From the IMG/VR virus record IMGVR_UViG_3300032030_000013: a DNA stretch of 64,000 nt. One strand, written 5' to 3'. Origin of the DNA: a virus. Lineage: Duplodnaviria > Heunggongvirae > Uroviricota > Caudoviricetes. Positions 1,691-39,226 of this stretch are shown here, piece after piece. The stretch's first letter is position 1; each line of letters starts with the position of its first letter. Both the position numbers and the translations under genes were made by a program. The notes below the pieces were generated by a model. It searched no databases. It was not told the DNA's origin and saw only the letters and a program-made list of their open reading frames with translations.

Positions 1691-1748
1691 AACTTTACTT
1701 ATTTTTTTGTATTTATATAAAAATAAAAAAAAAATGATTTTATATAAA

Positions 1749-1867: not shown

Positions 1868-1885
1868 AATTATTATTTTAACTTA

Positions 1886-16127: not shown

Positions 16128-16667
16128 TTATTTTCTATACTCTAATGAGTCTTCATCAAATTTTATTTCAATAGGATAATCTTTATTTGCATCATTAGAT
16201 TCTGCTGCACGGAATATATCTTTAAGTTTTTCCTCAACATTATCATCAGTTACATCAACCATATCAAATCTATCAAAATTAATTATATACTTAAGATTTT
16301 TAATTTTAAAGTAATCTAATTTAACATCATCATTAGTTTTCTTAAGATCAAATTTTGAATCCCATTCGATGAATTCTTTTGGTTCTATATCAATATGCTC
16401 AAATGTATCATATTCAAAATGTACATCTGATATACTGTCATTATTTTTTCCAAAGAATTGTTCTGAATAATCTTGTCCTGATGGTAAAGAATTAAGCCAC
16501 ATATCATCCATATATTGTTGAATATCAGATTCTTGATATGTTTCTGGTGCTTGAAGTATAATTTCTTCAGGTTGAACTAAATATGTAGCTTCAACTTCAT
16601 TTAATCTATAAGCTTCAACAGCTTCAACTATATTATGTTCTAATATATAATTTCTAATATCTTTCAT
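16128..16667 (-). CDS. hypothetical acidic protein, tag family (MKDIRNYILE)
   Basis: 179 aa. Confidence 0.5.
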   Translation of the reverse strand: MKDIRNYILEHNIVEAVEAYRLNEVEATYLVQPEEIILQAPETYQESDIQQYMDDMWLNSLPSGQDYSEQFFGKNNDSISDVHFEYDTFEHIDIEPKEFIEWDSKFDLKKTNDDVKLDYFKIKNLKYIINFDRFDMVDVTDDNVEEKLKDIFRAAESNDANKDYPIEIKFDEDSLEYRK

Positions 16668-16696: not shown

Positions 16697-17056
16697 TTAT
16701 TTATCTATAGCATAAACACTGTTTAATCCATATCCACAGCAAAAAACAGTATGCCCAGATGTTTTACGTTTTATATATACAAACCATTCAAAATCTCCAA
16801 GCTCGTCTTCATCAAATTCATATAAATCTTTTTTAATGATATCACCTTTATCTTTAATTATCCTAATGTTTTCTGTATAACTTTTATCTTTTATAGATTT
16901 AAATGGTTTACCTATAATAGTTATATCTTCACCATTAGAATCTTTACCTGGAGTTTCTGGTCCTTTGATATTTTCAGGTTCTATATAATTTTTCTTAAAC
17001 TTAGTATTTTTATTTATAATAAGTTTTTCAAATATGAAATTATTTATATCTTTCAT
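16697..17056 (-). CDS. hypothetical protein, extended tag MKDINNFIFEKLIINKNTK
   Basis: Paralog of 17083..17451. Shared stretches ...YIEPE(N/D)I...ETPGKD... and C-terminal Y(G/T)xxxVY(A/G)(I/V)D. Confidence 0.5.
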   Translation of the reverse strand: MKDINNFIFEKLIINKNTKFKKNYIEPENIKGPETPGKDSNGEDITIIGKPFKSIKDKSYTENIRIIKDKGDIIKKDLYEFDEDELGDFEWFVYIKRKTSGHTVFCCGYGLNSVYAIDK

Positions 17057-17082: not shown

Positions 17083-17451
17083 TTATTCATCTACCCCGTA
17101 AACACCTTCAGGGCCGTATGTATAACAGTTTAATTCTTTATCACCTTTATGAGCGGCATATACGAAATATGTATCATCATCATAATCATTTAAATTATCT
17201 ATATCTGCTAAATCGTTATATACTACATATTTTGATTTTCGTATATATCTAAGTGTTTCTAAATAATTTTGATCTTTTGGTTTTGTTGTAAATGGTTTTC
17301 CTACAATAACAACATCATCTCCAAAGTAATCTTTACCTGGAGTTTCCATATCTTCTATATCTTCTGGCTCTATATAATCTCTTTTAGATGATATTTTAGT
17401 GTTCTTATTGATGATTAGTTTTTCATTAATCGAATCAACTATTGATTTCAT
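17083..17451 (-). CDS. hypothetical protein, extended tag MKSIVDSINEKLIINKNTK; tandem paralog of 16697..17056
   Basis: 122 aa. Similar throughout to the neighbouring gene. Confidence 0.5.
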   Translation of the reverse strand: MKSIVDSINEKLIINKNTKISSKRDYIEPEDIEDMETPGKDYFGDDVVIVGKPFTTKPKDQNYLETLRYIRKSKYVVYNDLADIDNLNDYDDDTYFVYAAHKGDKELNCYTYGPEGVYGVDE

Positions 17452-17457
17452 ATTTAA

Positions 17458-17835
17458 TTATTCACCTTTATTTATAATTTCGTTTATAATATCATATGCG
17501 TGAATCCATAAAGCTTGAGCTATGTTTACTTCTTTACACTTATATTTATCATCATTAGCAATCATATCTAAAAATTTTTGTTCAAATGTTAAATAAGAAG
17601 GTAATTCTTCATTTTCATATGCTTGTTGTAAATCATCAATATCTTCATATCCTGATAATTCATCTAAAATTCTTTCTGGTTTTACTTTAGATTCTTTCAA
17701 TGCTTTCTTTGTGAACTTAATCATATCAGATTTAGAAATATCTTTACATGACCAATAATCTTCACCAGTACTGCTCATTTTAATATTTTTATTTATAATT
17801 AATTTTTCAGATATGAAATTATTAATATTTTTCAT
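17458..17835 (-). CDS. hypothetical protein, extended tag MKNINNFISEKLIINKNIK
   Basis: 125 aa. Confidence 0.5.
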   Translation of the reverse strand: MKNINNFISEKLIINKNIKMSSTGEDYWSCKDISKSDMIKFTKKALKESKVKPERILDELSGYEDIDDLQQAYENEELPSYLTFEQKFLDMIANDDKYKCKEVNIAQALWIHAYDIINEIINKGE

Positions 17836-18050
17836 TAAATATCTTTAAAATATTTTTTGAATTCTTTAGAAGATATACCTATTTGATCTATAAGCCACCA
17901 ATTATCATTAATTTTTGATGCTTTATATTCTGTATCAACTTTAAATGTCTTAGTTCCTGTCTTGCGTTCTATTGTAAGTTCTTTAATGCATTTAACATCA
18001 TGGCATTCTGAATAATCAGTTTGTTTTAAAGATTCAATAATATCTTTCAT
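17835..18050 (-). CDS. hypothetical small protein (degenerate tag MKDIIESLKQ)
   Basis: 71 aa. Confidence 0.4.
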   Translation of the reverse strand: MKDIIESLKQTDYSECHDVKCIKELTIERKTGTKTFKVDTEYKASKINDNWWLIDQIGISSKEFKKYFKDI

Positions 18051-18397
18051 AGTTTACGATTAATCATATATATTGTTTGTGCTAAAACTTCAATCATTGA
18101 TTGTTTTCCGATTGTAGCTAAACTGTATGTATTGATAACATCTCTTTGTGTTATTCCATTATCTCTTGTAAGAATATGATCTATAAGATAATTATTCATT
18201 GTATCCCATTGATCTTTCAAATCACCTTTCCACAAACGTTGTTCAATTTCTTCCATTGTGTAATTTGTATTATTATCTTTATCTATGGCATATTTTTTAA
18301 TCCATTCTTTATCTTCATCAGATAATTTTTTTACAAGAGATGCCCATTTATTGTGACAATCTTTACTTTCATTAATGAAGTTTGTAATATTTTTCAT
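18047..18397 (-). CDS. hypothetical protein, tag family (MKNITNFINE)
   Basis: 116 aa. Confidence 0.5.
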   Translation of the reverse strand: MKNITNFINESKDCHNKWASLVKKLSDEDKEWIKKYAIDKDNNTNYTMEEIEQRLWKGDLKDQWDTMNNYLIDHILTRDNGITQRDVINTYSLATIGKQSMIEVLAQTIYMINRKL

Positions 18398-18418: not shown

Positions 18419-18796
18419 TTACCAACCACATTTATCAGAATTATTATAGTCCCATTCAATCATATAATCCTCTTCTTCTTTTGTCAAGTCTTCACCTTCA
18501 TTACTTATTGTCTTAAGAAGATTACCAATAATAAACTTATAAAGACGTTTTCTATCATCAGTAGATAAATTTCCAGATTTAGCAGCCTTTAATGTTGCAG
18601 TTGCCAATTTAGATACAACTGATGATTTCTCAAGTGTTTCAATTTTAAAATCACCTGATTTATGTTTCTTTACAAGATTCTGTGCTAATGCCCAATATTG
18701 TTTATAAATATTTTCATTATTATCTAATTCCATGCAAGCATTGAATATAACATGATTTGCATTAGATTCCATTATGAATTCTTTAATATCTTTCAT
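18419..18796 (-). CDS. hypothetical protein, tag family (MKDIKEFIME)
   Basis: 125 aa. Confidence 0.5.
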   Translation of the reverse strand: MKDIKEFIMESNANHVIFNACMELDNNENIYKQYWALAQNLVKKHKSGDFKIETLEKSSVVSKLATATLKAAKSGNLSTDDRKRLYKFIIGNLLKTISNEGEDLTKEEEDYMIEWDYNNSDKCGW

Positions 18797-18798
18797 AA

Positions 18799-19059
18799 TT
18801 ATTTTAATTTTACATATATATTTACAGAATCCTCAAAACTTTCCATTGGTTTTAATTTTAAAACTTTTTCTGTTGCTTCTCCAAAGAAATCTTTATCTTT
18901 TTTAATTTCTTCAATAGTTGCAAATTCAATTATTTTATCTTCAATATTTATGATAAATATATCTGGATCTTTAATTCCTTTACAATCTGTAGACCAAATA
19001 GTATTTTTAATTTGTTCTTCAGAGTTCATTTCAGTTATAAAATTATTAATATCTTTCAT
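18799..19059 (-). CDS. hypothetical protein, tag family (MKDINNFITE)
   Basis: 86 aa. Confidence 0.45.
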   Translation of the reverse strand: MKDINNFITEMNSEEQIKNTIWSTDCKGIKDPDIFIINIEDKIIEFATIEEIKKDKDFFGEATEKVLKLKPMESFEDSVNIYVKLK

Positions 19060-19082: not shown

Positions 19083-20252
19083 TCATACTTCTTCTAATTC
19101 TATTTTTTCTTGGTGCTTAACTGCTTGAATATCATTAGATTCCCTGTCTGCTTCATTAAGGCATTCTTTCATAAGTTCATATGCATCTGAGAATAAGCTA
19201 AGTATCTTCTTATTCTTCTTAATGAAACTATTAATCTTAAAGCAGTAATATGTAATATTTGAATTTGCTACATTATATTTTTCAGCAATTTCCTTATTCT
19301 TCATTTTCTTGTGACCACGAAGACCATAGAATGAATACCAAACATCAAGAATCTTTGAATCAAATTCATCCTCAAGAACTTTCCAAATACGATTCCAAAG
19401 TTTCTCAAGATCTTCACTATCTAATTTCTTTCCTGCATCTGATGTTGATCCAATGAAATCAAACATTGTTTTTCCGCCTTCATCATCATGTCCTACAGCC
19501 TTATCACCAGATACTGATATGTTCTTTGTATTATGACCCTTTTGATCACGTTCCTTTTTCTGTTGTGAAGCAGGAATTCTTACAAGATGTGAATCATTAA
19601 CACCATTACCAATAATTTGATTACGCATACAATATGCTGCATACTGTCCAAAAGTATAAGATACTACAGCCTCATCAGTTGCAGTAGATTTCTTATTCTT
19701 TTTGCCATAAGTATTCATAGCATAAACCAAACCTTCTGAGCAGCAACCCAAAAGATCATTATAGCCAAGGTTAATCTTGCCAAGCCATTGCTTAGCAATC
19801 TTATGAATAAGTGGTTCATATTTCTTAGCAACAGCAGTACGTCCTGCTTCAGAATTCAAATCAAGTATAATTGCGTCAGGAGCCTGTTTCTTATTGATAA
19901 TTGATTCAAATTCTGCCTTTGTTTGGAACACTGGAATTTCCATATAACGTCCAGTCTTAATAAGAGTTCCAAGTAATTTATAAAGTTCTTTAAGATTATC
20001 CTTTGATGGAACACCAGCTTTATAAAATCCTGCTAAAGCATTCTCATCTAAATCATTAGATAATTCTGCAATATATGTATCATTATTTACAATAAGCCAA
20101 TTAATGATGTCTTTGGCTTCTGGAGAAATGAAATTATCAGCAATTTCTAAATACTTCTTGAGGTCAGCTTCCCCAATATAGTTTATAGAATTACTTTGTA
20201 CATCAAACTGAATTTTTGATTTTGCTTCTTTAATTTGAGTTAAACTTTTCAT
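19083..20252 (-). CDS. second sigma-70-family sigma factor (phage-encoded)
   Basis: CSEGLVYAMNTY...FGQYAAYCMRNQIIGNGVNDSHLVRIPASQQKK is region-2-like (YAxYxxRNxI...RIP). The C-terminal KNKEIAEKYNVANSNITYY is a region-4-like HTH. Confidence 0.6.
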   Translation of the reverse strand: MKSLTQIKEAKSKIQFDVQSNSINYIGEADLKKYLEIADNFISPEAKDIINWLIVNNDTYIAELSNDLDENALAGFYKAGVPSKDNLKELYKLLGTLIKTGRYMEIPVFQTKAEFESIINKKQAPDAIILDLNSEAGRTAVAKKYEPLIHKIAKQWLGKINLGYNDLLGCCSEGLVYAMNTYGKKNKKSTATDEAVVSYTFGQYAAYCMRNQIIGNGVNDSHLVRIPASQQKKERDQKGHNTKNISVSGDKAVGHDDEGGKTMFDFIGSTSDAGKKLDSEDLEKLWNRIWKVLEDEFDSKILDVWYSFYGLRGHKKMKNKEIAEKYNVANSNITYYCFKINSFIKKNKKILSLFSDAYELMKECLNEADRESNDIQAVKHQEKIELEEV

Positions 20253-22137: not shown

Positions 22138-23913
22138 ATGATACATTTTGTTTTTTCTGATAGTGATCCAAGATATTTGTTTTTAAAATATGATTCTGAA
22201 TATGATGAAATTAATTTAAAGAAACTTAAGGATCATATCAATCTTACAGATCCTATATGTTATCTTTCAACATATCATGGACCACCATTTACTCAGGATT
22301 TCTTATATACATATGTCCAGCCTTCAGGTAATATCATATATTATTGTGCAATAGGTTTATGGCAAGAAATATATTTATTCTTTAAAGAAAATGATATTCC
22401 TTTTGATGGTTTATTAGATCATAGCGAAGTATTCAAAAGAAACATACCGCATACATTTGAACAATTTAAAGAAATTGTAGATAACTGGGGATTGAAGTTT
22501 TCACCAAGACCATATCAATATGAAGCTGCATATAAGATATTAAACTGGAAACAATCTGTATCTGAATTAGCTACTCGTGCAGGTAAGACATTGATAGCTT
22601 ATATGATATTTAGATATTGTATTGAATATCTTGGGGCTAAAAGGATATTAATGATTGTGCCTTCTATTCAGTTAGTAACACAAGGATATAATGATTTTTC
22701 AGAATATGCAGAATTCTTTAATACTGAATGTGTATGGGGCGGTGGTAAGTTAGTTGAATTTGCTAATCTTACAATAGGAACATTCCAATCATTAATTAAA
22801 TTCTTAGATAAAGGAACAAAATCAAAACCAAATAAAAAGTATAATCCAGATTTCTTTAATGGATATGATATAGTGTTTGTTGACGAGACACATAGAGCAA
22901 CTGCTAATCAAATTAAGACAATTATTAGTCAGCCATTTATGAAGGATGTTAAAATTGCTTTTGGTATGACTGGAACGATTCCTAAGAAAAAGACTATTGA
23001 ATATTACTGTCTTAAATCATTACTTGGTGCTACAATACAAGAGATTAAGCCAAAATATTTGATGGATGAAGGATATATATCAAAAGTAAATATTACACAA
23101 GTAAGACTTCATTATAAAGATTTAGAGAAATCTATTAATAATTATATATTATGCGCGGAATATGCATTATCTGAATTTGTAACAGAAGAAAGAATCAATC
23201 GTAATGGAAAGAAAGTACAAGAACGAATAAAATTAGATAATCCACAGTTTCAGATACAGTTCAAAAAGAAACTACCAATGGGTATTAATGAAATGAAATT
23301 GCAATTTTATGAAGATACTGATGAAGGAAAAAAGAATTGGATTCAAACATTAAAGACTTATATCAATATGTCAGAATCAACTAATTCATTAGTTGTTGAA
23401 AGAATGGTATCGCATTTTATGACAGAACGTATTGATTATCTTTGCAATAATATATTAGCGCAATGTGATAAGAATACATTGGTACTTGCGCATCATACAG
23501 AATATATTCATTATATAACAGATATCATTAAGAAACGTTTTCCAAATAAGCATATAGATACAATTACTGGAGCAGTATCACCAAAGAAACGTGATGAGAT
23601 TAAACAAATGCTTAAAGAAAATAATGATTGTATATTGATAGCATCTTATGGTACGTTATCAACGGGTATTACGTTATCAAATCTTTGTTATGGTGTTTTA
23701 TTTGAATCATTTAAGTCAGAAGTAATTAATATGCAATCAATAGGTCGTGGGTTGGGATTATCTGAACTTAAGGAAGAATTTATATTATTTGATGTAATTG
23801 ATTGTTTTGATAGAAAGATATTATCAAATAAAATATATCTACAAGGTTTAGCAAAATGTAGAAAATATGATGAAGAAAAATATCCATATAAAATTATAAA
23901 TGTAAATATATAA
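22138..23913 (+). CDS. superfamily-2 DNA/RNA helicase (DExH box)
   Basis: LATRAGKT (Walker A), IVFVDETHRA (DExH), MTGT (motif III), C-terminal helicase domain with QSIGRGLG. 591 aa. Confidence 0.7.
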   Translation: MIHFVFSDSDPRYLFLKYDSEYDEINLKKLKDHINLTDPICYLSTYHGPPFTQDFLYTYVQPSGNIIYYCAIGLWQEIYLFFKENDIPFDGLLDHSEVFKRNIPHTFEQFKEIVDNWGLKFSPRPYQYEAAYKILNWKQSVSELATRAGKTLIAYMIFRYCIEYLGAKRILMIVPSIQLVTQGYNDFSEYAEFFNTECVWGGGKLVEFANLTIGTFQSLIKFLDKGTKSKPNKKYNPDFFNGYDIVFVDETHRATANQIKTIISQPFMKDVKIAFGMTGTIPKKKTIEYYCLKSLLGATIQEIKPKYLMDEGYISKVNITQVRLHYKDLEKSINNYILCAEYALSEFVTEERINRNGKKVQERIKLDNPQFQIQFKKKLPMGINEMKLQFYEDTDEGKKNWIQTLKTYINMSESTNSLVVERMVSHFMTERIDYLCNNILAQCDKNTLVLAHHTEYIHYITDIIKKRFPNKHIDTITGAVSPKKRDEIKQMLKENNDCILIASYGTLSTGITLSNLCYGVLFESFKSEVINMQSIGRGLGLSELKEEFILFDVIDCFDRKILSNKIYLQGLAKCRKYDEEKYPYKIINVNI

Positions 23914-30281: not shown

Positions 30282-32066
30282 TTAGATGATATCGAACTCT
30301 GAATCAACAACCATTGTGAAATATGCGAGTTCTGGGAAGAAGCCAGCTTCAGCGATTGCATAACGGCTGTTAACCAACATCTTAGGAGCCATAGTTCCTT
30401 CAGCAGTAATACTAATAGTATCTGCAAGAATATAAGGCATAAAGATTACACCAGGTTCGTTACCAGTACCCTTACGACCGATACAGATACGAGTATCATT
30501 CCAATCCATGTAAGGATCTACATAAACTTGGAGACCAGCAACAGTACCTGCGTGGTATAAGTTCTGAGTATTAGCTTGAGACATTGTGTTCAAGAATGGA
30601 GCTACAACGTAACCAGATACATCTTGTAATGCAGAAGCAATCTTACCGTTAGTAACGATCCATGTTGGACGGCCACGACGACCTACCAATTGGATTAAGT
30701 TAGCAGCAGCTAAGATACGGCTCATGATACGACGTTGACGTGTAGAAAGATTTTCAGCAGAAGTATTAACTTCTGAGTTCTTAATACCTGTCCAAGTTGG
30801 TTTGTGATCATATCCGTAGATATCTGTGAAGTGAGGTACACCAGCATAAGCTTGAGCCATAGAAATTGTAGAACCAGTCTTACCCATCCACAAGTTCAAA
30901 TCAACACCCTGACGAGCCTTTTGTTGAGCAGCATTAGTAACACCAAGTGCGAATACTCTTTCAAGGATACGTTGGTTGATATGTTGAGTGATTTCGTTTT
31001 GAAGAGCTTCCATAACTTTACCTACAGCATCTACGCCATATAATGGAAGATCTTGTAACTGTTGACGAGTAACAGTACCAGTTACTTCATAAGCACCCAT
31101 TTGGATCCACTTGCTGAATAAACGAAGACCGATTACATTACCTGTACCAGTTTCATTCTGAGCACGTGTCATTGAATTCTTAGAACCATCGAAGAAGTTT
31201 GCGAAACCATCTACTAAATCAACAGAAGTCTGTACGAAGTCAGCTTCAACCTTTTGAGCAGGAACACCTGTAGAAGCATTAGCAGCAGTAAGAGTGATAG
31301 TAACACTACCGATTACTACAGAAGTAGCAGCGTCGAATTCTTCACGGATTGAGTGATTAGCATCTGAACACTTAACAACTTTTACAAGTGGGCAAGCATC
31401 CATACGACCTAATGAAATGAACTTACCTTCAAATCCACCTACAGTTACAGTATCATCAGCTTTAACTGTTGGAGTTGCAGCTTCCATACCTTGACGGATT
31501 GTTTGGATCTGAGCAAGTGTAAGACCCTTGATCTTAACATAGATTGGTTTGTTTTCATTAAGATCACCCTTACCATCGAATGAAGTTTCGTTTACACGAC
31601 CTAACTTACCACCAGCATATGGGAAGTCCATGTAAGTTAACATAGCCCAAGGACCCTTAGCAGGGATAACTGGAACTAATTCAAGACCAATAGTTAACAA
31701 TGCAACGTTAAGAGCCATTGGTAATGTTGATACAGGAATATCACCTGAACCTGGAGTTTGACCCCAGAATGAACCTGTTGGATTAGCTTGGTTATATGGA
31801 GCTGTGCTCATTGGATCTAATTGACTTGGAGCAGCAATATTACCCATACCTGTAGTGTTCATTGGAGTAGTATAGATAGGACCAACACCTGGATAAGTTG
31901 TAGCGTTAGTAACTACTTGACCACCATTAATTCCAAGTTGAGATTCGTGAATTTCATGAATAGCTGCGTACTGAGACACCCAGTTAAGTTTTTCCTGGTC
32001 TGTAACATTGAAGTTTTCTTTCAACATCTTCTCCCATGTCTGTACACCATTTTGTTCATTAAACAT
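30282..32066 (-). CDS. major capsid protein (T4 gp23 family)
   Basis: C-terminal PTWIVTNGKIASALQDVSGYVVAPF...LQVYVDPYMD...GRKGTGNEPGVIFMPYILAD parallels T4 gp23 GNFIIASRNVVNVLASVDTGISYAAQG...YRVYIDQYAK...GYKGPNEMDAGIYYAPYVAL (recall-based). Higher GC. Follows the protease-scaffold gene. Confidence 0.8.
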   Translation of the reverse strand: MFNEQNGVQTWEKMLKENFNVTDQEKLNWVSQYAAIHEIHESQLGINGGQVVTNATTYPGVGPIYTTPMNTTGMGNIAAPSQLDPMSTAPYNQANPTGSFWGQTPGSGDIPVSTLPMALNVALLTIGLELVPVIPAKGPWAMLTYMDFPYAGGKLGRVNETSFDGKGDLNENKPIYVKIKGLTLAQIQTIRQGMEAATPTVKADDTVTVGGFEGKFISLGRMDACPLVKVVKCSDANHSIREEFDAATSVVIGSVTITLTAANASTGVPAQKVEADFVQTSVDLVDGFANFFDGSKNSMTRAQNETGTGNVIGLRLFSKWIQMGAYEVTGTVTRQQLQDLPLYGVDAVGKVMEALQNEITQHINQRILERVFALGVTNAAQQKARQGVDLNLWMGKTGSTISMAQAYAGVPHFTDIYGYDHKPTWTGIKNSEVNTSAENLSTRQRRIMSRILAAANLIQLVGRRGRPTWIVTNGKIASALQDVSGYVVAPFLNTMSQANTQNLYHAGTVAGLQVYVDPYMDWNDTRICIGRKGTGNEPGVIFMPYILADTISITAEGTMAPKMLVNSRYAIAEAGFFPELAYFTMVVDSEFDII

Positions 32067-32183
32067 ATTATTTAAGTTGAAATTTATTTGTTATTCTCTT
32101 TTGAGATAAATTAATTTTATATAAAAATAAATATTTTCTTTCCTAATAGAAAATATATGCAATTTCCTTATTAGTTATTAAAT

Positions 32184-33911
32184 TTAGCAATTTCTACGAA
32201 GAGCTTTCATCTTTGCAACAATTGAATTCTGATAAGCTTCCATAGGATTTTCCTTAGCTTCATTTACATAAACAGGATTTTGTTGATTGAAATCAACGTT
32301 AGCCCAGAACTTCTCAATTTGACCTTCCTTCATGAAGTCATACATACGAGAACTTCTAATAATTTCTTGTTGACGAGCTTCTGTAAGAAGTTCCCAAGAA
32401 GGACGATATTCAGCAGGCATGTTTTCTACAACATAAACTCCTTTATATTTATTGTTCTTTCCTTCTTCTTCAACAATTTTGTTAACTGATGCATTATCGT
32501 CATTTGCAATTGATTCAAGTAAACTATCAATTTCTTCTAAACGACCAGCCTTTTGAGATTCCATAAATGCAGAAACATTCTCATTTACTTTATTTTCAAT
32601 AGTTTGTGATTGTTCAGGAGCAAATTCTTCAGTAATCCATCCTTCTACTACTGGAGCAAATTCTTCAGTAATCCATCCTTGAATTTCAGGTGAGAATTCC
32701 TCTACGATCCAATTTTGTACTTCAGGTGAGAATTCTTCAACTACCCAGTTCTGAACTTCTGGAGCAAATTCTTCAACTACCCAGTTCTGAACTTCTGGAG
32801 CAAATTCTTCAACTATCCATTGTTGTACCATTGGAGCGAATTCTTCATTAACCCACTTTTGAACTTCAGGATTATATTCTTCATTAATCCAATTTTCTAC
32901 GCCTGTAGCAATAGTTTCCATTGATTCATTAACTTTAGTATCAATCTTTTCATCAATATCTTCGTTAATTTCATTAGATACTTCTTGCTTGAATTCTGGA
33001 GCAAATTCTTCCTTTACCCATTGTTCAATAGCTTCGTAATTAACTGGCTTAACTGATTCTCTAGTCTCTTCTAAACTTTCTTTTGCAACATGCAATTCAG
33101 CTTGGAGAGATTCTACTTTTTTAGCAAGCTCTTCAACAGCTTCTCTAAGTTTTTCCATATCGGTATTATCATTGCCATTATTTTTGTTATCTTCTTTATC
33201 ATTATCCTTATCTTTAGAGTCATCTTTATCCTTGTCATCTTCCTTAGGTTTATCCTTTGGTTTATCATCTTCCTTAGGTTCTTCTTTAGGTTCTTTATCT
33301 TTATCCTTATCATCATCATCAGATAAAAGATCATCAGAACCTTCAACGATTACCCAAGTTTCATTGTTACCTTCTTCTAAACCTTCATTAAGACATTCAA
33401 GTTTTTGATTCTCTTTAAGAGTAAGTTTGGCTTGACTAAAACCTGGAGTACCGACCAAATCGTAAGTCTTAATAGTAGATAACGTTACACGACCTTCATT
33501 AGTGATAGTACCTGCACCTCTTGAAGATATATACAATGGAAGACCGCCTTCTACAATTGCTTGAGCAATTTTTCCACTTGGAGTATTCAAAAGCAAGATA
33601 TCACCAGTGATGGTTCCATCTTCATTCATTTGAATAGATTCAATCTTGTGAGATACATTTTGTAAATTAATATTCATTGAGTTTGGGTGTTCCAATTCAC
33701 CAGGACAACCTGATTCTTTGATAACTTTTTGTAAAGACTCAACCATCTGCTTATAATTTTCTTTATCATAAACACGATTATTTTGATTCTTTATACCACA
33801 AACACCAAATACACCATGAAGACGCATACCGTTGCTACCTTTACTTTCAACGATTTCAAGATCTGAAACTTTACCAAGAGTCTCATAAATCAAGCAACGT
33901 TTATCTGTCAT
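32184..33911 (-). CDS. prohead protease - scaffold fusion protein
   Basis: N-terminal about 190 aa (LHGVFGVCGIKNQNNRVY ... LEHPNS ... ISSRGAG) resembles phage prohead serine protease domains. Then a D/K-rich low-complexity linker, then a coiled-coil and acidic repeat region. Immediately upstream of the MCP. Confidence 0.55.
   Translation of the reverse strand: MTDKRCLIYETLGKVSDLEIVESKGSNGMRLHGVFGVCGIKNQNNRVYDKENYKQMVESLQKVIKESGCPGELEHPNSMNINLQNVSHKIESIQMNEDGTITGDILLLNTPSGKIAQAIVEGGLPLYISSRGAGTITNEGRVTLSTIKTYDLVGTPGFSQAKLTLKENQKLECLNEGLEEGNNETWVIVEGSDDLLSDDDDKDKDKEPKEEPKEDDKPKDKPKEDDKDKDDSKDKDNDKEDNKNNGNDNTDMEKLREAVEELAKKVESLQAELHVAKESLEETRESVKPVNYEAIEQWVKEEFAPEFKQEVSNEINEDIDEKIDTKVNESMETIATGVENWINEEYNPEVQKWVNEEFAPMVQQWIVEEFAPEVQNWVVEEFAPEVQNWVVEEFSPEVQNWIVEEFSPEIQGWITEEFAPVVEGWITEEFAPEQSQTIENKVNENVSAFMESQKAGRLEEIDSLLESIANDDNASVNKIVEEEGKNNKYKGVYVVENMPAEYRPSWELLTEARQQEIIRSSRMYDFMKEGQIEKFWANVDFNQQNPVYVNEAKENPMEAYQNSIVAKMKALRRNC
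32625..32895 (-). repeat. in-frame tandem 36-nt repeats (about 7 copies) inside the scaffold gene, encoding W(I/V)(V/T)EEFAPEVQN
   Basis: Two copies are nucleotide-identical (32741-32776 and 32777-32812). Flanking copies are diverged. Confidence 0.75.
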
Positions 33912-34076: not shown

Positions 34077-35120
34077 TTATTTAATTGTACCCATATCTTT
34101 ATATGTTTGTGGTAATTCTGATAATCCATATATTCCAGAAAGTCTAGGAAAGTTACTCCAAGCAGTTTGATATTCGGATATTAATTCATCTGGTACATAT
34201 ATTGTAGTATCAGCATCATGAAATCCATCAGTCCTTAATAATGTTGGCGGAGTTATAGCTTTACATGCCAAAACTATTTGTCCAGTACCACCAGATCTTT
34301 CATTCATATTTCGTCCCCAATGTTGTGCATCTATTTCTGTAACTGTTGTAGGTAATTCAATATATACACATTTTGTCGCACCAACAATAGCACCCATACA
34401 TGTAATACCTTCTGGAGCTATTATTTTTTCAACACCACTATTATTAAACATGTGTTCACTAATTTCATCACATCCTGGAGGCAATATTCCATCATACCAT
34501 TTTATTGATGAGCATTTATTATATAATCCAAAATATTTTCTATATTTATCTCCTCCAGTTATTGTACAATTATTCCAATTAACTTTTGTTAATGATGAGC
34601 AGTTATAAAATGGGCTATGATCATAATATCCTCTAGCCCAAGATGCAACAATTGGTGGCATAGTTACTTCTTTTAATGATGTGCAATTTTTAAATAAATC
34701 AGTAAGACCACTATTACTTGTAAAATATTTAAATTCATTAAAATATATTATTGAAGTTCCACTAATTTTTGTATTTGATGCAATTAAATTAATATTAGCT
34801 GCTTGTTCTGCAGTAATTCCTTCTTCAGTCCAATTAATTGCATTAAATAATATTTGTTTAGAATTTTCATCTTCAAATAATATATAATATCCATCTGCAT
34901 TTATATGTAACTGGTTGAATCTGTTTTTGATAATATTTATATATTCTTCATAAGTATATTCAGTATTGATTGTTCCAATTATATTAGTATTATTATCAAA
35001 TATTGTTTCACCATTATTTTCCCTGTTAACTAATTTATATAACTTGTTTATCAATGAAGGTGGAACATTATATTCAATTATACTTTCTTGTTGATTTACG
35101 TTTATATGTAAAGTTGACAT
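34077..35120 (-). CDS. tail fibre / receptor-binding protein paralog 3 with BspA-type leucine-rich repeats
   Basis: Shares the N-terminal module (M..HI.VNQ..NVP..LI.KLY.L ... YTYEEY ... GYYILFED) with 35245..37044 and 37073..39226. The C-terminal part is LRR_5-like. Confidence 0.6.
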   Translation of the reverse strand: MSTLHINVNQQESIIEYNVPPSLINKLYKLVNRENNGETIFDNNTNIIGTINTEYTYEEYINIIKNRFNQLHINADGYYILFEDENSKQILFNAINWTEEGITAEQAANINLIASNTKISGTSIIYFNEFKYFTSNSGLTDLFKNCTSLKEVTMPPIVASWARGYYDHSPFYNCSSLTKVNWNNCTITGGDKYRKYFGLYNKCSSIKWYDGILPPGCDEISEHMFNNSGVEKIIAPEGITCMGAIVGATKCVYIELPTTVTEIDAQHWGRNMNERSGGTGQIVLACKAITPPTLLRTDGFHDADTTIYVPDELISEYQTAWSNFPRLSGIYGLSELPQTYKDMGTIK

Positions 35121-35244: not shown

Positions 35245-37044
35245 TTATTTTTCATTCATATATTCTTCTATTAGTCCAGCCATACCACCCATGCCTTGTT
35301 CAATAGTAATTCGTGGACATATACTTAAAGGTTTAATTTTATCTATAACACTTGAGAAATATGAAGTAGCTTTATATGTTTCTACTGCAGAATCTGGTAC
35401 ATAAATACCATCATTAATGATAGTAGTTCTAAACATATCTTCATTAAATAAGCATATTCCATTATCACCATCTCCAGTATCTACCCAATCACTCATTATT
35501 TCAAGTTGAGGAGGTGTTGCATTATTAAATATAAGTATATCTACAGTAAATCCTGCAAATGTACTAGCCTGTACTTTATTTAATTTTTTAAAATATAATG
35601 TTTTAATAGTTGAATGGTCATGATGTTGATTATGAACATTATTTGAAAATAATGTTATATATGGCATATATATCCTTTCACCAAAATATGATACTCTATT
35701 TCCTCTTGAATTATTAGATGCATATGAATCATGAATTTCAGTAATTTTTGGTAAATAAAAACTATAATTACCTATCATACCTATAAATGGAGCAGTAGAT
35801 CCATCATAATTAGATCCTCTTCCATGATTATATACACCACCAAATTTTATACAACGTGGTAAATAAAATACTTTATGTGTAAAATTAGTTTTATAAAAAG
35901 CATTTCCATCAATTATAGTAAGATTTTCTTGAAAATCACTAAAATTAACTGTAGTTAAATTTGTACAATTATAAAATATATGATATGATAAATTTGATAA
36001 ATTTACTGGTAATTCTACTTCTCTTAAATTAACGCAACTTTCAAACATACCATTACCATTATATGAAAAATCACCATCTATTTCAATAAATGTTCCAATT
36101 AATTTTGCTGTAATTAATTGTGTACATCCATAAAATGTTTTATTTCCACATAGTGTGTTTAAATTTTCTAAATTAACATATTTTATATTTGTTTGTTTAG
36201 TAAAAGTAGTATCTGCTACATATGTACAATTTGGTAAATCTAATAGTTCAATGTCTAATAATGTTACATAATTACCCGCGCCAAAAACGCCTGAATCACG
36301 ATTTCCAATAAATGTAGATATATTTTGTAAATCTTCATTTGTTAGAACTAATCCTGTTTGTCTTAAAGAGTCTTTATATAAACATGTAATATTTGATAAA
36401 TCTATTGAAGTTAATGAAGTACAACCAGAAAATGCAGATTCTCCAATATAACTGCATTTTGATAAACTACCTATTGAAGTTAATGATGTACAACCTTTAA
36501 ATGCATTATAAGGTACTGGAGCTGTTAAATTACTTAAGTCTATTGATTTTAAATTTGAATCTCTAAAACAAAAACTTCTATTATTACCAGGATTATTAGA
36601 TTGTGTATTTCTACTATTTAAATCAGAAAAATATTTAAATTCATTAAAATATTCTATTTCAGTTGATTTAAACATATCCCATGGATTAAACATAATATTT
36701 CTAGCTACATCTGTAGATATACCTGTACCATCACCGAATCCTTTGTCTAATAAAGTATTTAAAACAAAATCATCTTGAAATAAAATATAATATCCTTCAG
36801 CTTCTATAGTTAAAGTACCATCAAAATATTGATTTATTTTATCTACATATTCTTCATATGTATATCCTTTTGTTTTAAATGATCCTACTAATGCCGTATC
36901 TATTTTGCCTTCATCCATAGCATCCCATACTTCGTTTCCAGCTTCAGTACTTTTAATTAATCTATAAAGTTTGGTAATTAATTCAGAAGGAACATTAGTT
37001 TCTTGAACATTTATTTGATTAACTTTAATATGTTTTTTAGACAT
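35245..37044 (-). CDS. tail fibre / receptor-binding protein paralog 2 with BspA-type leucine-rich repeats
   Basis: Conserved N-terminal module. Central repeats of the type F.GCTSLTSI.L..I..I...AF. 599 aa. Confidence 0.6.
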   Translation of the reverse strand: MSKKHIKVNQINVQETNVPSELITKLYRLIKSTEAGNEVWDAMDEGKIDTALVGSFKTKGYTYEEYVDKINQYFDGTLTIEAEGYYILFQDDFVLNTLLDKGFGDGTGISTDVARNIMFNPWDMFKSTEIEYFNEFKYFSDLNSRNTQSNNPGNNRSFCFRDSNLKSIDLSNLTAPVPYNAFKGCTSLTSIGSLSKCSYIGESAFSGCTSLTSIDLSNITCLYKDSLRQTGLVLTNEDLQNISTFIGNRDSGVFGAGNYVTLLDIELLDLPNCTYVADTTFTKQTNIKYVNLENLNTLCGNKTFYGCTQLITAKLIGTFIEIDGDFSYNGNGMFESCVNLREVELPVNLSNLSYHIFYNCTNLTTVNFSDFQENLTIIDGNAFYKTNFTHKVFYLPRCIKFGGVYNHGRGSNYDGSTAPFIGMIGNYSFYLPKITEIHDSYASNNSRGNRVSYFGERIYMPYITLFSNNVHNQHHDHSTIKTLYFKKLNKVQASTFAGFTVDILIFNNATPPQLEIMSDWVDTGDGDNGICLFNEDMFRTTIINDGIYVPDSAVETYKATSYFSSVIDKIKPLSICPRITIEQGMGGMAGLIEEYMNEK

Positions 37045-37072: not shown

Positions 37073-39226
37073 TTATACTCCCCAAGTTGGAGTTGAATCC
37101 CAGTTAATTGACTCTCCTGGTAATAATCCCATGTATTCTTCTATTAGATATTCATTTTTACTATGTACTCCATCTGGCATATCTGGAGCAGCATCATATT
37201 CTGCTTTTGTTGCAAAATGCCCCATGCTTTCTAAAGCTATTATTCTATTTTCAGTAGCATCATTTGTAAACTTGGTAATATCAGTAAATTTTTGTCTATA
37301 CTCACTGTCTAAATTTGGTGAACTTAAATCAGGATTGATTGCATCCCAGTTTAAATATGTATTAATTGCAGATCTAGGTACAACCAAATAATGGAAAGTT
37401 TCATTAGATCCGCTCTCAGCTTTCATATATAATGATATACTACTAAATATACTGCCTCCATATTGATATGTTGATTGCCAATATTCTGGTGGTGTTGTAT
37501 TATTTATGACCAAATATTTTATATTTGCCCAAAGTACATTAGCTGCCCACTTGTCGATACGTTGCCCACGTTCTCCAAATGGTACCGCGCCTTTATATTC
37601 CTGTACCCAATTATTGTTTTCTCTACGTCTTCCTAGACCTTCATAGTTTGTATTATAATATAAGGTTCCATCCCATTCCGTTGCATATATGTCGGCGTAT
37701 GACTTACCACCAAATAGCCATCCATTTATTTTACGAATATTTTTTAGATAATAGATATCCATTGTTGATCCACACATTACTGTTCTATTTAATCTACCAA
37801 CACCTGGAGTATCATATCCACTAATACTGTTTGTATGTGTTATGTTAGGAAGATACATTGATCTAACATTTGAATCTTTAAATGGTCTATAACTACAAAC
37901 ATTAGCTTTTATGTATATAATTGATGGTAATGTTAATATACCTGTCATACAATCAGTATCAAAATATGTTATTCTATTTATGATATCATTGACACCTGTT
38001 AGATTGACACATCCCATAAACGCACTTTGACCTAATTTATTTGCACTTAATGGAATTGATACTGATGTTAGTGTTGTGCAATTTGTAAATCCAGTTACTG
38101 TTGTTACATTACCTAAGTTCGATACTGTTTTTATTTTACATCCTCTAAATGCATCTTCACTAATTTCTGTTAATTGTGGTAGACTTAAGTCATCTATTAC
38201 CAAATTTGTACAATATGCAAATGCCCCTTTATATATTTTTGTTATATTTTCTAATGCTTCTGGAGATATTGATGTTAATTTATCACAGTATTCAAATGTG
38301 TATTCACATATCGTACAGTTTCCCAATTCAGATATTTTCTTTATTTGTGTATTGCGAAATGCTTCATTTCCTATAGTTGTTATATTAGGCAATTTTAAGT
38401 CATTTATTATCAAGTTTTCACAGTATTGAAATGAATAATGTCCAATACGTGTAATTTGTTCTAATATGCCGTCTTCAATATATTCAAGTGAAATACAGTG
38501 TAAAAATATTCTATCTTGTATGACTGTACAGTTTCCTAAGTCATATATCTTTTTTACTTTAGGACCTCTCCATACATTATTTGTCTTTTCCCATTGAAAG
38601 ATTCCTCCAGAGAAACCGTTTGATTTAAGGTTAGGCAAACGTAAAGATCCTTTTTCTGAATTCTGTCCATTAAAGAATTCTAAATTAGAACAATATGCAA
38701 ATGCATTAATTCCAAATGTTTCAATATTTGTTAAATCTATGCTTGTTAATGATTGTGAACTAGCAAATTCACTTGTTGCTAATGCTTTCACATTTGTTAG
38801 TTTTGATAGCTCATCAAATGTTTGTATTTCATTATTGCCTTTAAATATTCGTCTAAATCCATAATAATCAGAATTACCTGAATTATTTACTTCTAAACCT
38901 GTAATAACTCCTTCATAATGTTTTTCTGGATATATTACATTAACTAATTGGTTTAATATTATTGATTCTACAACAGGATCTTCAAAATATACATAATATC
39001 CTTCAGATATAATATTAAGATTATTGAAGAATGAATGTAATGCTTCTACATATTTATCATATGTATATCCTGTCTTAAATGTTCCTTGTATAGAGTCTTC
39101 ATTACAGTCCCATGAATCCAATCCTTTTAATTGATTACTATATAATGTATATAGTTTTGTTATAAGTTGAGCAGGTACGTTATTTTCCTGCCCAACTGTT
39201 TGAGTTAATTTAATATGTTTTCCCAT
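37073..39226 (-). CDS. tail fibre / receptor-binding protein paralog 1 with BspA-type leucine-rich repeats
   Basis: Conserved N-terminal module. Multiple AF.YC.NL..I.LP.I..I...AF repeats. 717 aa. Confidence 0.6.
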   Translation of the reverse strand: MGKHIKLTQTVGQENNVPAQLITKLYTLYSNQLKGLDSWDCNEDSIQGTFKTGYTYDKYVEALHSFFNNLNIISEGYYVYFEDPVVESIILNQLVNVIYPEKHYEGVITGLEVNNSGNSDYYGFRRIFKGNNEIQTFDELSKLTNVKALATSEFASSQSLTSIDLTNIETFGINAFAYCSNLEFFNGQNSEKGSLRLPNLKSNGFSGGIFQWEKTNNVWRGPKVKKIYDLGNCTVIQDRIFLHCISLEYIEDGILEQITRIGHYSFQYCENLIINDLKLPNITTIGNEAFRNTQIKKISELGNCTICEYTFEYCDKLTSISPEALENITKIYKGAFAYCTNLVIDDLSLPQLTEISEDAFRGCKIKTVSNLGNVTTVTGFTNCTTLTSVSIPLSANKLGQSAFMGCVNLTGVNDIINRITYFDTDCMTGILTLPSIIYIKANVCSYRPFKDSNVRSMYLPNITHTNSISGYDTPGVGRLNRTVMCGSTMDIYYLKNIRKINGWLFGGKSYADIYATEWDGTLYYNTNYEGLGRRRENNNWVQEYKGAVPFGERGQRIDKWAANVLWANIKYLVINNTTPPEYWQSTYQYGGSIFSSISLYMKAESGSNETFHYLVVPRSAINTYLNWDAINPDLSSPNLDSEYRQKFTDITKFTNDATENRIIALESMGHFATKAEYDAAPDMPDGVHSKNEYLIEEYMGLLPGESINWDSTPTWGV

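What the first reader, a model, noticed from the sequence alone, without database searches (positions are those of the whole stretch)
30282..33911. Capsid N-terminus and scaffold repeats carry (I/V)-x-E protease-site motifs, consistent with T4-like prohead processing
The MCP N-terminus has AAIHEIHESQ near residues 33-41, with two I-x-E in a row where T4 gp23 is clipped after L-x-E (recall-based). The scaffold half of 32184..33911 is built from about 7 tandem 12-residue repeats W(I/V)(V/T)EEFAPEVQN (32625-32895; two DNA copies identical), each containing I-V-E, V-V-E or I-T-E. This would let the prohead protease chop the scaffold into small acidic peptides. It also supports tag cleavage at FI-x-E in the tag family.
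Basis: partly seen in the sequence, partly recalled or inferred. Interest (0 to 1): 0.6.

Follow-up and report, generated by a model that had tools for sequence, protein, structure and literature searches.

The report
T4-style head protease cutting sites
A huge low-GC phage encodes a T4-type head-maturation protease fused to its scaffold, and its capsid protein and scaffold carry conserved hydrophobic-x-Glu motifs of the kind this protease family cuts in T4, which is well supported but expected biology rather than a new kind of system.

Summary
The gp23-family capsid protein (30282..32066, minus strand) has I36-H37-E38-I39-H40-E41. The neighbouring 575-aa protein (32184..33911, minus strand) has 8 tandem copies and 1 isolated copy of W-[VI]-x-E-E-[FY]-x-P-E.

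- The first ~167 residues are a Peptidase_S77 (T4 gp21) domain. His, Ser and Asp align with T4 His85, Ser140 and Asp168.
- Characterised relatives cut after Glu; T4 cuts after L/I-x-E.
- The second I-x-E is invariant in close homologues. It is the commonest position of a hydrophobic-x-Glu motif in 70 diverse capsid proteins.
- It is the last Glu before the capsid core in 100 of 107 homologues.
- The related phage PAU loses about 65 N-terminal residues, ending at or next to L-M-E64.
- Hydrophobic-x-Glu is about 2-fold enriched in this scaffold, in T4 gp22 and in four related scaffolds; 1.5-fold in MA9V-2.
- Unrelated tandem repeats in relatives also keep the motif.
- Twenty-one window ORFs start with a tag resembling the T4 capsid-targeting sequence MKTYQEFIAE.

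This is a new member of a known kind. The strict conservation of W, E-E-F and P suggests the repeat also has a structural or docking role.

The parts
30282..32066 (-). Major capsid protein, 594 aa, T4 gp23 family
   Evidence: Pfam Gp23 PF07068, E 5.5e-29. phrog_28442, E 3.9e-108. 2395 homologues in metagenomes.
31944..32066 (-). Predicted MCP N-terminal propeptide, aa 1-41. It carries the T4-like W11-x-x-M-L-K-E17 motif and the W29-V-S-Q-Y-A34 anchor.
   Evidence: Aligns with the T4 gp23 propeptide segment KWKPLLEGEG and with PAU, pT24, PTm1 and megaphage MCPs. No Glu occurs between E41 and the core motif IGLELVP.
31944..31961 (-). Candidate cleavage motifs I36-H37-E38 and I39-H40-E41. The predicted mature N-terminus is S42.
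   Evidence: H-E-I-[HY]-E is invariant in the full-length homologues listed. E41 is the last Glu before the core in 100 of 107 homologues. It is also the modal position (+7 from the anchor, 32 of 70) of a hydrophobic-x-Glu motif in diverse representatives.
32184..33911 (-). Prohead protease-scaffold fusion protein, 575 aa
   Evidence: phrog_207 'head maturation protease' matches over the full length, E 6.1e-40. The best full-length phage match is the Tenacibaculum phage pT24 'prohead core scaffold'.
33411..33911 (-). Peptidase_S77 (T4 gp21-like) protease domain, aa 1-167. It is flanked by I8-Y9-E10 and L165-K166-E167.
   Evidence: PF03420 scores 42.1 bits against a cut-off of 27; PF20034 (S80) scores 29.3 bits. 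phmmer hits T4 gp21 structure 5JBL. The N-terminal motif aligns with T4 L-I-E9. The C-terminal boundary motif aligns with T4 P-K-E184, PAU L-M-E and pT24 V-M-E.
33687..33689 (-). His75 codon, in GELEHP; predicted catalytic His
   Evidence: Invariant column that aligns with T4 gp21 His85.
33525..33527 (-). Ser129 codon, in ISSRGAG; predicted catalytic Ser
   Evidence: Invariant column that aligns with T4 gp21 Ser140.
33459..33461 (-). Asp151 codon, in TYDLVG; predicted third triad residue
   Evidence: Invariant column that aligns with Asp168 of the T4 gp21 translation.
33162..33341 (-). Asp/Lys-rich low-complexity linker, about aa 191-250. It has no hydrophobic-x-Glu motif.
   Evidence: Sequence. 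Short DNA repeats at 33235..33311. It would form a single 67-residue fragment with net charge -13 if every motif were cut. AlphaFold2 pLDDT is below 40 here.
32985..33020 (-). Isolated repeat copy WVKEEFAPEFKQ, aa 298-309
   Evidence: W298, E301 and E302 are invariant in homologues.
32604..32891 (-). Eight tandem 12-residue repeats W-[VI]-x-E-E-[FY]-x-P-E-x-x-x, aa 341-436
   Evidence: Tandem Repeats Finder period 36; unit coordinates. In 1026 units from 120 homologues, position 2 is V/I/L in 99.6%, position 4 is E in 99.7% and position 5 is E in 100%. Copy number ranges from 5 to 11, apart from one outlier (P0188) with a single copy.
32187..32603 (-). Conserved C-terminal scaffold region, aa 437-575, ending in a basic tail
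   Evidence: [ILV]-x-E occurs 8 times against 3.4 expected, p 0.007. Many columns are invariant. The last predicted fragment, aa 552-575, has net charge +3.

Best explanation
The two genes are the core of a T4-type prohead maturation system in a huge phage that probably infects Bacteroidota.

The 575-aa protein is a gp21-like serine protease (S77, His75/Ser129/Asp151). It is fused through a charged linker to an acidic, helical scaffold.

Inferred steps:
1. The fusion protein co-assembles with the gp23-like capsid protein into a prohead.
2. The protease then cuts after Glu in hydrophobic-x-Glu motifs.
3. It frees itself at I-Y-E10 and L-K-E167.
4. It removes the first 41 (or 38) residues of the capsid protein at I-H-E, leaving S42 as the mature N-terminus.
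5. It degrades the scaffold half at about 30 sites, at least one in every 12-residue W-[VI]-x-E-E-F-x-P-E repeat. The products would have a median length of 11 residues and a net charge of about -60 in all, and could leave the shell or stay as internal peptides.
6. It probably also clips the M-K-x-I-x-x-[FY]-I-x-E tags from many cargo proteins.

Shown here: family membership, catalytic residues, motif conservation and motif enrichment. Inferred: every cleavage event and its exact position.
For: Protease:
- PF03420 scores above its cut-off when the domain is scanned alone.
- His, Ser and Asp align with T4 gp21.
- Hydrophobic-x-Glu motifs at the N-terminus and at the C-terminal boundary of the protease domain are conserved across T4, PAU, pT24 and the window protein. 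The N-terminal motif also appears in PTm1, LR756500 and LR756502.
- Characterised relatives cut after Glu. T4 uses L/I-x-E, and phiKZ and SPN3US use A/S/G-x-E (PMC9026906 and PMC5694885).

Capsid protein:
- H-E-I-[HY]-E is invariant in close homologues.
- E41 is the last Glu before the core in 100 of 107 homologues, followed by a Glu-free stretch of up to 89 residues.
- Megaphage relatives have L-Y-E, L-N-E, I-N-E or M-N-E in the same alignment column.
- All 70 diverse representatives that carry the anchor have a hydrophobic-x-Glu motif after it. The modal offset is +7, which equals E41. P3 is L, I, V or M and P1' is mostly S or N.
- PAU MCP (35% identical) goes from 585 to 520 residues by N-terminal sequencing (PMC5646251). 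That places the mature N-terminus at or next to L-M-E64.

Scaffold:
- [ILV]-x-E is enriched 2.3-fold here, and 2.0-fold outside the repeats.
- The same figure is 1.96-fold in T4 gp22, 2.2 in pT24, 2.5 in PTm1, 2.1 in LR756500, 1.95 in LR756502 and 1.5 in MA9V-2.
- Other spacings (h-E, h-x-x-E, h-x-x-x-E), h-x-D and h-x-K show no comparable enrichment.
- LR756502 has 10 unrelated 14-residue repeats, Y-x-E-Y-[IL]-A-E..., each with [IL]-A-E.

Tags:
- 21 ORFs start with M-K-x-[IL]-x-x-[FY]-I-x-E, compared with T4 IPII and IPIII MKTYQEFIAE.
- PAU gp149, gp150, gp152, gp153 and gp154 start MKT[LI]xxL[YF]E.
Against: - There are no proteomic or biochemical data for this phage or its close relatives.
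- The experimentally supported PAU cut lies 15-20 residues downstream of the aligned window motif. PAU has L-N-D in that column, so the position is not strictly conserved.
- In the repeats, W, E-E, F/Y and P are as strongly conserved as the [VIL] at position 2. The motif could therefore be a by-product of a structural or binding repeat.
- pT24's degenerate copies read W-V-I-K-E-F and W-T-V-N-E-F. There the first Glu is lost and only the second is kept.
- P1' in the repeats would be Glu or Phe, unlike the S/N/A seen at the MCP and tag sites.
- In the non-repeat scaffold, the reverse pattern E-x-h is as enriched as h-x-E. Part of the signal may therefore come from helix amphipathicity.
- The AlphaFold2 model is poor (pLDDT 52.5).
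Confidence: 0.68

Rival explanations
1. The W-[VI]-x-E-E-F-x-P-E repeat is mainly a structural or docking module. It could be a Pro-kinked helical array that binds the inner capsid surface or the tagged cargo, or that sets scaffold length. On this reading the [VI]-x-E inside it is incidental. The scaffold is removed by cuts elsewhere or leaves largely intact.
For: W, E4, E5, F/Y6 and P8 are 99-100% conserved in 1026 units, which is more than a three-residue protease motif needs. Copy number varies from 5 to 11 among close relatives, as would be expected of a length-setting or avidity module. pT24 keeps W...E-F-A-P but not the first Glu. AlphaFold2 places the repeats in one long helix (low confidence).
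Against: Position 2 is V, I or L in 99.6% of units and Glu4 is present in 99.7%. Unrelated repeats in LR756502 and PTm1 also carry a hydrophobic-x-Glu motif in each unit. The enrichment is specific to this spacing and matches T4 gp22, a known substrate. The two roles are not mutually exclusive.
Confidence: 0.2
2. The protease has a phiKZ/SPN3US-like preference for a small P3 residue ([SAG]-x-E) rather than a hydrophobic one. The relevant repeat sites would then be [AS]-P-E9, and the MCP would be cut at a different Glu.
For: The domain also scores above the cut-off for Peptidase_S80 (29.3 bits against 23.4). [SAG]-x-E is mildly enriched in the scaffold half (16 against 10.2 expected, z 2.3), all of it from the repeats.
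Against: The S77 score is higher (42.1 bits). [SAG]-x-E is not enriched outside the repeats or in the related scaffolds. The MCP N-terminus has no [SAG]-x-E. The tags have an invariant I8 and E10. A Pro at P2 would be unusual.
Confidence: 0.07
3. The conserved A-A-I-H-E-I-H-E segment is a structural element of the capsid N-arm or of a scaffold-binding helix that is kept in the mature protein. The MCP would be either uncut or cut only further upstream, for example at L-K-E17.
For: Conservation alone does not prove cleavage. L-K-E17 (or L-T-E) is also conserved and aligns with T4 L-L-E18. The PAU cut does not align with E41.
Against: PAU and T4 both remove about 65 residues, including the segment homologous to aa 1-41. 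The sequence after E41 is variable in length and composition and is Glu-free, which is the pattern expected just downstream of a maturation site. P1' is S or N in most of the diverse homologues.
Confidence: 0.1

Closest known systems
Bacteriophage T4 prohead maturation: gp21 protease (MEROPS/Pfam S77), gp22 scaffold, gp23 capsid protein and the internal-protein capsid-targeting sequence
   Same: The MCP is gp23-family and the protease is gp21-family, with aligned His, Ser and Asp. The MCP has an N-terminal propeptide with the W-x-x-h-h-x-E motif. The scaffold is acidic and helical, with a 2-fold enrichment of hydrophobic-x-Glu. There are hydrophobic-x-Glu motifs at the protease N-terminus (T4 L-I-E9, window I-Y-E10). 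The N-terminal tags match MKTYQEFIAE at positions 1, 2, 7, 8 and 10.
   Different: Protease and scaffold are one polypeptide here, whereas T4 has separate gp21 and gp22. The scaffold half has no detectable sequence similarity to gp22. It contains 8+1 tandem 12-residue W-repeats and an Asp/Lys linker. The predicted propeptide is 41 residues rather than 65, followed by a much longer Glu-free N-arm. There are 21 tagged ORFs in 64 kb; for comparison, one search shows T4 ipII and ipIII carrying this tag.
Sphingomonas (Sphingobacterium) phage PAU gp151 protease, gp152 scaffold and gp156 MCP
   Same: The MCP is 35% identical and the protease domain 45% identical in the five-sequence alignment. N-terminal sequencing shows the PAU MCP is shortened by about 65 residues, ending next to L-M-E64 (PMC5646251). 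The head-gene neighbours gp149-154 carry MKT[LI]xxL[YF]E tags.
   Different: Protease and scaffold are separate genes in PAU. The PAU scaffold has no W-repeats. The PAU cut lies 15-20 residues downstream of the column aligned with window E41.
Tenacibaculum phages pT24 and PTm1 'prohead core scaffolding protein and protease' fusions; megaphage LR756500 and LR756502 homologues
   Same: They share the S77 protease-scaffold fusion architecture and the gene order protease-scaffold then MCP. Their scaffold halves are enriched about 2-fold in hydrophobic-x-Glu. pT24 has 2-3 degenerate W-x-x-x-E-F-A-P copies.
   Different: The repeat families differ. PTm1 has W-containing units of about 17 residues. 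LR756502 has ten 14-residue Y-x-E-Y-[IL]-A-E units. LR756500 has only degenerate repeats. Whole-protein identity is only about 32% (to pT24).
phiKZ gp175 and SPN3US gp245 prohead proteases (Peptidase_S80)
   Same: These are distant homologues that also cut after Glu. They process many head proteins, and they auto-process their C-terminus.
   Different: They prefer small P3 residues (A/S/G-x-E). No gp22-like scaffold has been confirmed in those phages (PMC5694885). The window protein scores better against S77 than S80.

Membership tests
Peptidase_S77 (T4 gp21 prohead core protease) | Sequence match to the family profile above the curated threshold | tested here: met
   PF03420 gives E 8.5e-11 and 42.1 bits against a cut-off of 27 when aa 1-170 are scanned alone. 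It was not listed at E<=0.01 when the whole 575-aa protein was scanned. Close homologues carry precomputed PF03420 hits.
Peptidase_S77 (T4 gp21 prohead core protease) | Conserved catalytic His, Ser and Asp | tested here: met
   H75, S129 and D151 are invariant in 57 homologues. They align with T4 gp21 His85, Ser140 and Asp168. That T4 gp21 has a catalytic triad is taken from PMC5694885. The assignment of these particular T4 residue numbers to the triad rests on my own recollection and the alignment, not on a paper read here.
Peptidase_S77 (T4 gp21 prohead core protease) | Cleavage C-terminal to Glu in L/I-x-E | not testable with these tools
   Only indirect evidence is available: conserved and enriched hydrophobic-x-Glu motifs in the presumed substrates.
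Peptidase_S77 (T4 gp21 prohead core protease) | Encoded in the head-gene module next to the scaffold and MCP genes | tested here: met
   The gene lies directly upstream of the MCP gene on the same strand and is followed by tail sheath and tail tube genes.
T4 gp23-family major capsid protein | Sequence match to Pfam Gp23 (PF07068) | tested here: met
   E 5.5e-29 and 102 bits against a cut-off of 24.4, over aa 125-577.
T4 gp23-family major capsid protein | N-terminal propeptide removed by the prohead protease | not testable with these tools
   This is shown for T4 (65 residues) and for PAU (about 65 residues). For the window protein it is inferred from motif conservation.
T4 gp22-type scaffold (core) protein | Sequence homology to gp22 | tested here: not met
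   The scaffold half has no Pfam or solved-structure hit other than chance-level matches. It is filed as a functional analogue, not a family member.
T4 gp22-type scaffold (core) protein | Acidic, helical protein densely set with protease motifs | tested here: met
   Net charge is about -61 over 409 residues. AlphaFold2 predicts it as all-helical, at low confidence. [ILV]-x-E is enriched 2.3-fold, against 1.96-fold in gp22.
T4 capsid-targeting sequence (the tag family cited by the finding) | An N-terminal tag of about 10 residues with a hydrophobic residue at 4, an aromatic at 7, Ile at 8 and Glu at 10, shared by otherwise unrelated proteins | tested here: met
   21 ORFs match. 21 of the 22 six-frame occurrences of the pattern lie at ORF starts. 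I8 and E10 are invariant and position 7 is F or Y in 19 of 21. The T4 sequence was confirmed. The roles of residues 4, 7, 8 and 10 are from PMC9026906.
T4 capsid-targeting sequence (the tag family cited by the finding) | Tagged proteins are packaged into the head and the tag is clipped | not testable with these tools
   There are no proteomic data. The only support is that PAU gp154, which carries a similar tag, is annotated 'internal capsid protein' in its GenBank record.

The most novel reading that the evidence does not exclude
The 12-residue W-[VI]-x-E-E-F-x-P-E units might be the docking sites on the scaffold for the M-K-x-I-x-x-[FY]-I-x-E tags carried by dozens of cargo proteins. The 21 tagged ORFs in this 64-kb window include a P-loop kinase and a DUF285 protein. 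On this reading, repeat copy number (5-11) would set cargo capacity, and cutting each unit would release the cargo inside the head. That would amount to a modular, tunable protein-packaging system far larger than T4's.
Probability: 0.1. Interest if true: 0.7.

Novelty: new member of a known kind. Interest (0 to 1): 0.33.

Why it matters
The finding extends the T4 rule of head maturation to an abundant, uncultured clade of huge low-GC phages. That rule is a Glu-specific S77 protease, hydrophobic-x-Glu sites, a disposable scaffold and clipped N-terminal tags. More than 2000 metagenomic homologues exist, on contigs up to about 467 kb.

It gives concrete, testable predictions:
- the mature capsid N-terminus at S42;
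- protease release at E10 and E167;
- scaffold peptides of 11-12 residues.

It also yields a simple sequence rule, hydrophobic-x-Glu enrichment plus the MK..I..FI.E tag. That rule could be used to predict head-internal, possibly injected, proteins in megaphage genomes, where most genes have no annotation.

The comparison of unrelated scaffold repeats that all keep the motif is modest new support for the idea that scaffolds evolve under selection to be degradable.

Tried and rejected
- **Whole-protein Pfam scan.** The S77 domain was not listed at E<=0.01. Scanning the domain alone recovered it.
- **AlphaFold2.** The fusion protein was modelled with a 57-sequence alignment. Mean pLDDT was 52.5, and the protease domain scored about 30-60. 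I therefore ran no fold search and use only the helical trend of the model.
- **Literature on PTm1, pT24, PAU and megaphages.** The only relevant result was the PAU N-terminal sequencing in PMC5646251. No paper in the top listings of these searches linked capsid-targeting sequences to megaphages.
- **Exact PAU cut.** The reported mass and length are compatible with a start at residue 65 or 66. This places the cut within one residue of L-M-E64 but does not prove a cut after Glu.
- **Helix amphipathicity as the sole cause of the enrichment.** Other spacings, h-x-D and h-x-K show no comparable enrichment. However, E-x-h is equally enriched in the non-repeat part of the window scaffold and more enriched in LR756502. 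This explanation is reduced but not excluded.
- **Jug gut phage clade.** I considered whether the window belongs to it. GC content and genome size are similar, but I did not test membership.

Full report
**Context**

The window has about 27% G+C. The region around the finding is a head-tail module on the minus strand. In order of transcription it contains:
- a 2368-aa protein;
- three BspA-type leucine-rich-repeat paralogues;
- the 575-aa protein at 32184..33911;
- the 594-aa protein at 30282..32066;
- a 1018-aa tail sheath;
- a tail tube.

The 594-aa protein is a T4 gp23-family major capsid protein (PF07068, E 5.5e-29). Its nearest relatives among deposited phages are only 29-37% identical. 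They are metagenomic megaphage LR756500, Sphingomonas phage PAU, Tenacibaculum phages pT24 and PTm1, Prevotella Lak phages and Chryseobacterium phage MA9V-2. PAU's host was later reassigned to Sphingobacterium (PMC3738902).

Metagenome collections hold 2395 homologues at E<=1e-10. Homologues of the neighbouring protease-scaffold gene sit on contigs up to 467 kb. The exact protein occurs on a 142-kb ENA contig and a JGI contig. The window therefore comes from an uncultured huge phage, probably of a Bacteroidota host.

**Observation**

The capsid N-terminus reads ...W29-V-S-Q-Y-A-A-I36-H-E38-I39-H-E41-S-Q-L-G.

The 575-aa protein carries a 36-bp tandem array. It resolves into eight 12-residue units at aa 341-436 (window 32604..32891) and one isolated unit at aa 298-309. 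Two adjacent units are 35/36 nt identical and share a 49-nt exact repeat. Every unit has [IV]-x-E at positions 2-4.

**The protease**

- Scanned alone, aa 1-170 match Peptidase_S77 above the curated cut-off (42.1 bits against 27). They match Peptidase_S80 more weakly.
- phmmer finds the T4 gp21 structure 5JBL.
- In an alignment with wild-type T4 gp21, PAU gp151, pT24 and PTm1, the invariant columns include H75, S129 and D151. These correspond to T4 His85, Ser140 and Asp168.
- According to the literature read here, gp21 is a serine protease that cuts after L/I-x-E. It fragments gp22, gp67 and gp68, and it removes N-terminal propeptides of 7-65 residues (PMC9026906).
- Its phiKZ, 201phi2-1 and SPN3US homologues also cut only after Glu, with a small residue at P3 (PMC5694885).
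- Two flanking motifs are conserved. I8-Y9-E10 aligns with T4 L-I-E9, which the review notes as a likely autocleavage site. L165-K166-E167 sits at the protease-scaffold boundary and aligns with T4 P-K-E184, PAU L-M-E and pT24 V-M-E.
- The same N-terminal motif is present in PTm1, LR756500 and LR756502.

**The capsid site**

- Among the 120 closest homologues (66-98% identity), the full-length sequences read Y-A-[AS]-[IVLNT]-H-E-I-[HY]-E-[SAN]. The first motif varies at P3, while the second I-x-E is invariant.
- In 100 of 107 homologues this Glu is the last one before the conserved core motif IGL[ED]LVP. It is followed by a Glu-free stretch of up to 89 residues that varies in length and sequence.
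- Distant megaphage MCPs have L-Y-E, L-N-E, I-N-E or M-N-E in the same alignment column.
- I also searched cluster representatives at 50% identity. Of 105 full-length proteins, 70 carry the W-M-S-x-Y-A anchor.
- All 70 have a hydrophobic-x-Glu motif within 30 residues after the anchor. The mode is at +7 (32 of 70), exactly the position of E41.
- At these sites P3 is L, I, V, M or F, and P1' is S or N in 42 of 70.
- The N-terminal W-x-x-h-h-x-E motif (window W11...L15-K-E17) also aligns with T4 gp23 K-W-K-P-L-L-E18.
- T4 gp23 reads F-L-T-E65|A66.

**Evidence from PAU**

The one experimental anchor in the clade is PAU. Its MCP goes from 585 to 520 residues by N-terminal sequencing (PMC5646251). 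That places the mature end at or next to A-L-M-E64. pT24 (I-L-E|S-Y-G) and PTm1 (I-N-E|S-Y-G) have the matching motif.

In PAU this site lies 15-20 residues downstream of the column aligned with window E41, where PAU has L-N-D. The exact position therefore shifts between lineages, while the rule of a cut after hydrophobic-x-Glu ahead of the N-arm holds.

**The scaffold**

- The scaffold half (aa 171-575) has 31 [ILV]-x-E against 13.4 expected (2.3-fold). Without the repeats it has 14 against 6.9.
- The same test gives 1.96-fold for T4 gp22, which is the known substrate.
- It gives 2.2 for pT24, 2.5 for PTm1, 2.1 for LR756500, 1.95 for LR756502 and 1.5 for MA9V-2.
- h-E, h-x-x-E, h-x-x-x-E, h-x-D and h-x-K show no comparable enrichment. 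In the window scaffold and in T4 gp22, h-x-x-x-E and h-x-D are depleted.
- The reverse pattern E-x-h is enriched in the non-repeat part of the window scaffold and in LR756502. Helix amphipathicity therefore contributes something.
- Across 1026 repeat units in 120 homologues, position 2 is V/I/L in 99.6%, position 4 is E in 99.7% and position 5 is E in 100%. Copy number ranges from 5 to 11, apart from one outlier (P0188) with a single copy.
- Relatives carry different repeats in the same place. PTm1 has W-containing units of about 17 residues with L-S-E or I-x-E.
- LR756502 has ten 14-residue units, Y-x-E-Y-[IL]-A-E-x-L-D-x-x-I-x, each with [IL]-A-E.
- MA9V-2 has 15 dispersed x-N-E-[SA] motifs, 12 of them with a hydrophobic residue (I, L or F) before the Asn.
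- Unrelated repeats that all retain the motif are the best comparative argument that the motif itself is under selection.
- If every motif were cut, the scaffold half would give 32 fragments. Their median length would be 11 residues and their summed charge -60.

**Limits**

- W, E-E, F/Y and P are conserved as tightly as the putative P3 residue.
- pT24's degenerate copies keep W...E-F-A-P but lose the first Glu.
- The repeat therefore very probably also has a structural or binding role. Which Glu is cut (E4, E5 or E9) cannot be decided.
- The AlphaFold2 model is of low confidence (pLDDT 52.5) and only suggests an all-helical scaffold.

**The tag family cited by the finding**

- Twenty-one ORFs in the window start M-K-[DSN]-[IL]-x-[ND]-[FY]-I-x-E. 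Twenty-one of the 22 six-frame occurrences of the pattern are at ORF starts.
- T4 IPII and IPIII start MKTYQEFIAE. In that capsid-targeting sequence, residues 4 and 7 serve targeting and residues 8 and 10 serve processing (PMC9026906).
- PAU gp149, gp150, gp152 (scaffold), gp153 and gp154 ('internal capsid protein') start MKT[LI]xxL[YF]E.
- The ORF just upstream of the MA9V-2 protease starts MKTFTYFINE.
- This independently points to I/L-x-E specificity for the clade's protease.

**Verdict**

It is a new member of the T4-type maturation system. It has a fused protease-scaffold, which is already annotated in pT24 and PTm1, and a lineage-specific, copy-number-variable repeat. It is expected rather than surprising biology. 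The accompanying tag family is the more interesting lead.

Noticed in passing
window, minus strand: 680..1690, 1886..2515, 12905..13207, 14793..15152, 15179..16126, 16128..16667, 16697..17056, 17083..17451, 17458..17835, 18047..18397, 18419..18796, 18799..19059, 49750..50610, 55651..56016, 56049..56573, 56570..56992, 56946..57281, 58785..59396, 59400..60284, 60287..60592, 61617..62864: Twenty-one ORFs begin with M-K-[DSN]-[IL]-x-[ND]-[FY]-I-x-E, which closely resembles the T4 capsid-targeting sequence MKTYQEFIAE. Cargo includes a P-loop kinase (AAA_33, 56049..56573) and a DUF285 protein (58785..59396). The other eight tagged proteins scanned had no Pfam hit.
   Followed up: partly
window 16697..17056, 17083..17451, 17458..17835, 56570..56992, 58785..59396 (minus strand): Five of the tagged ORFs continue with the same second block, K-L-I-I-N-K-N-[TI]-K, directly after the Glu. 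This defines a sub-family with a longer shared leader.
   Followed up: no
window 34077..35120, 35245..37044, 37073..39226 (minus strand): Three BspA-type leucine-rich-repeat paralogues (Pfam LRR_5 for two of them; the third matches the same PHROG families as one of those) share an N-terminal module of about 30 residues...H-I-K-V-N-Q...N-V-P-x-x-L-I-x-K-L-Y-x-L. They lie between a 2368-aa protein and the protease gene, an unusual insert in a head module.
   Followed up: no
L006 (LR756502.1) ORF starting at locus position 3806, aa 303-442: The 699-aa protease-scaffold homologue of this 642-kb metagenomic phage has ten tandem 14-residue repeats, Y-S-E-Y-[IL]-A-E-N-L-D-K-N-I-x. They are unrelated to the window's W-repeats, but each carries [IL]-A-E.
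   Followed up: partly
L007 (Chryseobacterium phage MA9V-2) 1958..5581: The annotated 'prohead core protein serine protease' is 1207 aa long. It contains 15 dispersed x-N-E-[SA] motifs, 12 of them with I, L or F before the Asn. The small ORF just upstream (1666..1914) starts MKTFTYFINE.
   Followed up: partly
L003 (Tenacibaculum phage PTm1) 3147 versus annotated start 3222: The PTm1 protease-scaffold ORF can start 75 nt upstream of its annotated start. This gives MKKLIVEVWKNSG..., which restores the conserved N-terminal L-I-x-E motif seen in T4 gp21 and the window protein. The deposited start is probably too short.
   Followed up: partly
L002 (phage PAU) gp149, gp150, gp152, gp153, gp154: Five consecutive small head-module proteins start MKT[LI]xxL[YF]E. 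They include the annotated scaffold and the 'internal capsid protein'. This is a 9-residue variant of the capsid-targeting tag.
   Followed up: partly
window 33162..33341 (minus strand; aa 191-250 of the fusion protein): An Asp/Lys/Pro-rich low-complexity linker with short DNA repeats (33235..33311). It contains no hydrophobic-x-Glu motif. It would survive as one 67-residue fragment of net charge -13 if all motifs were cut.
   Followed up: no
window 19083..20252 (minus strand) and 22138..23913 (plus strand): A sigma-factor-like protein (phrog_351) and a DNA helicase (phrog_16) flank a short plus-strand island (about 20.4-24.8 kb) where the GC skew changes sign.
   Followed up: no
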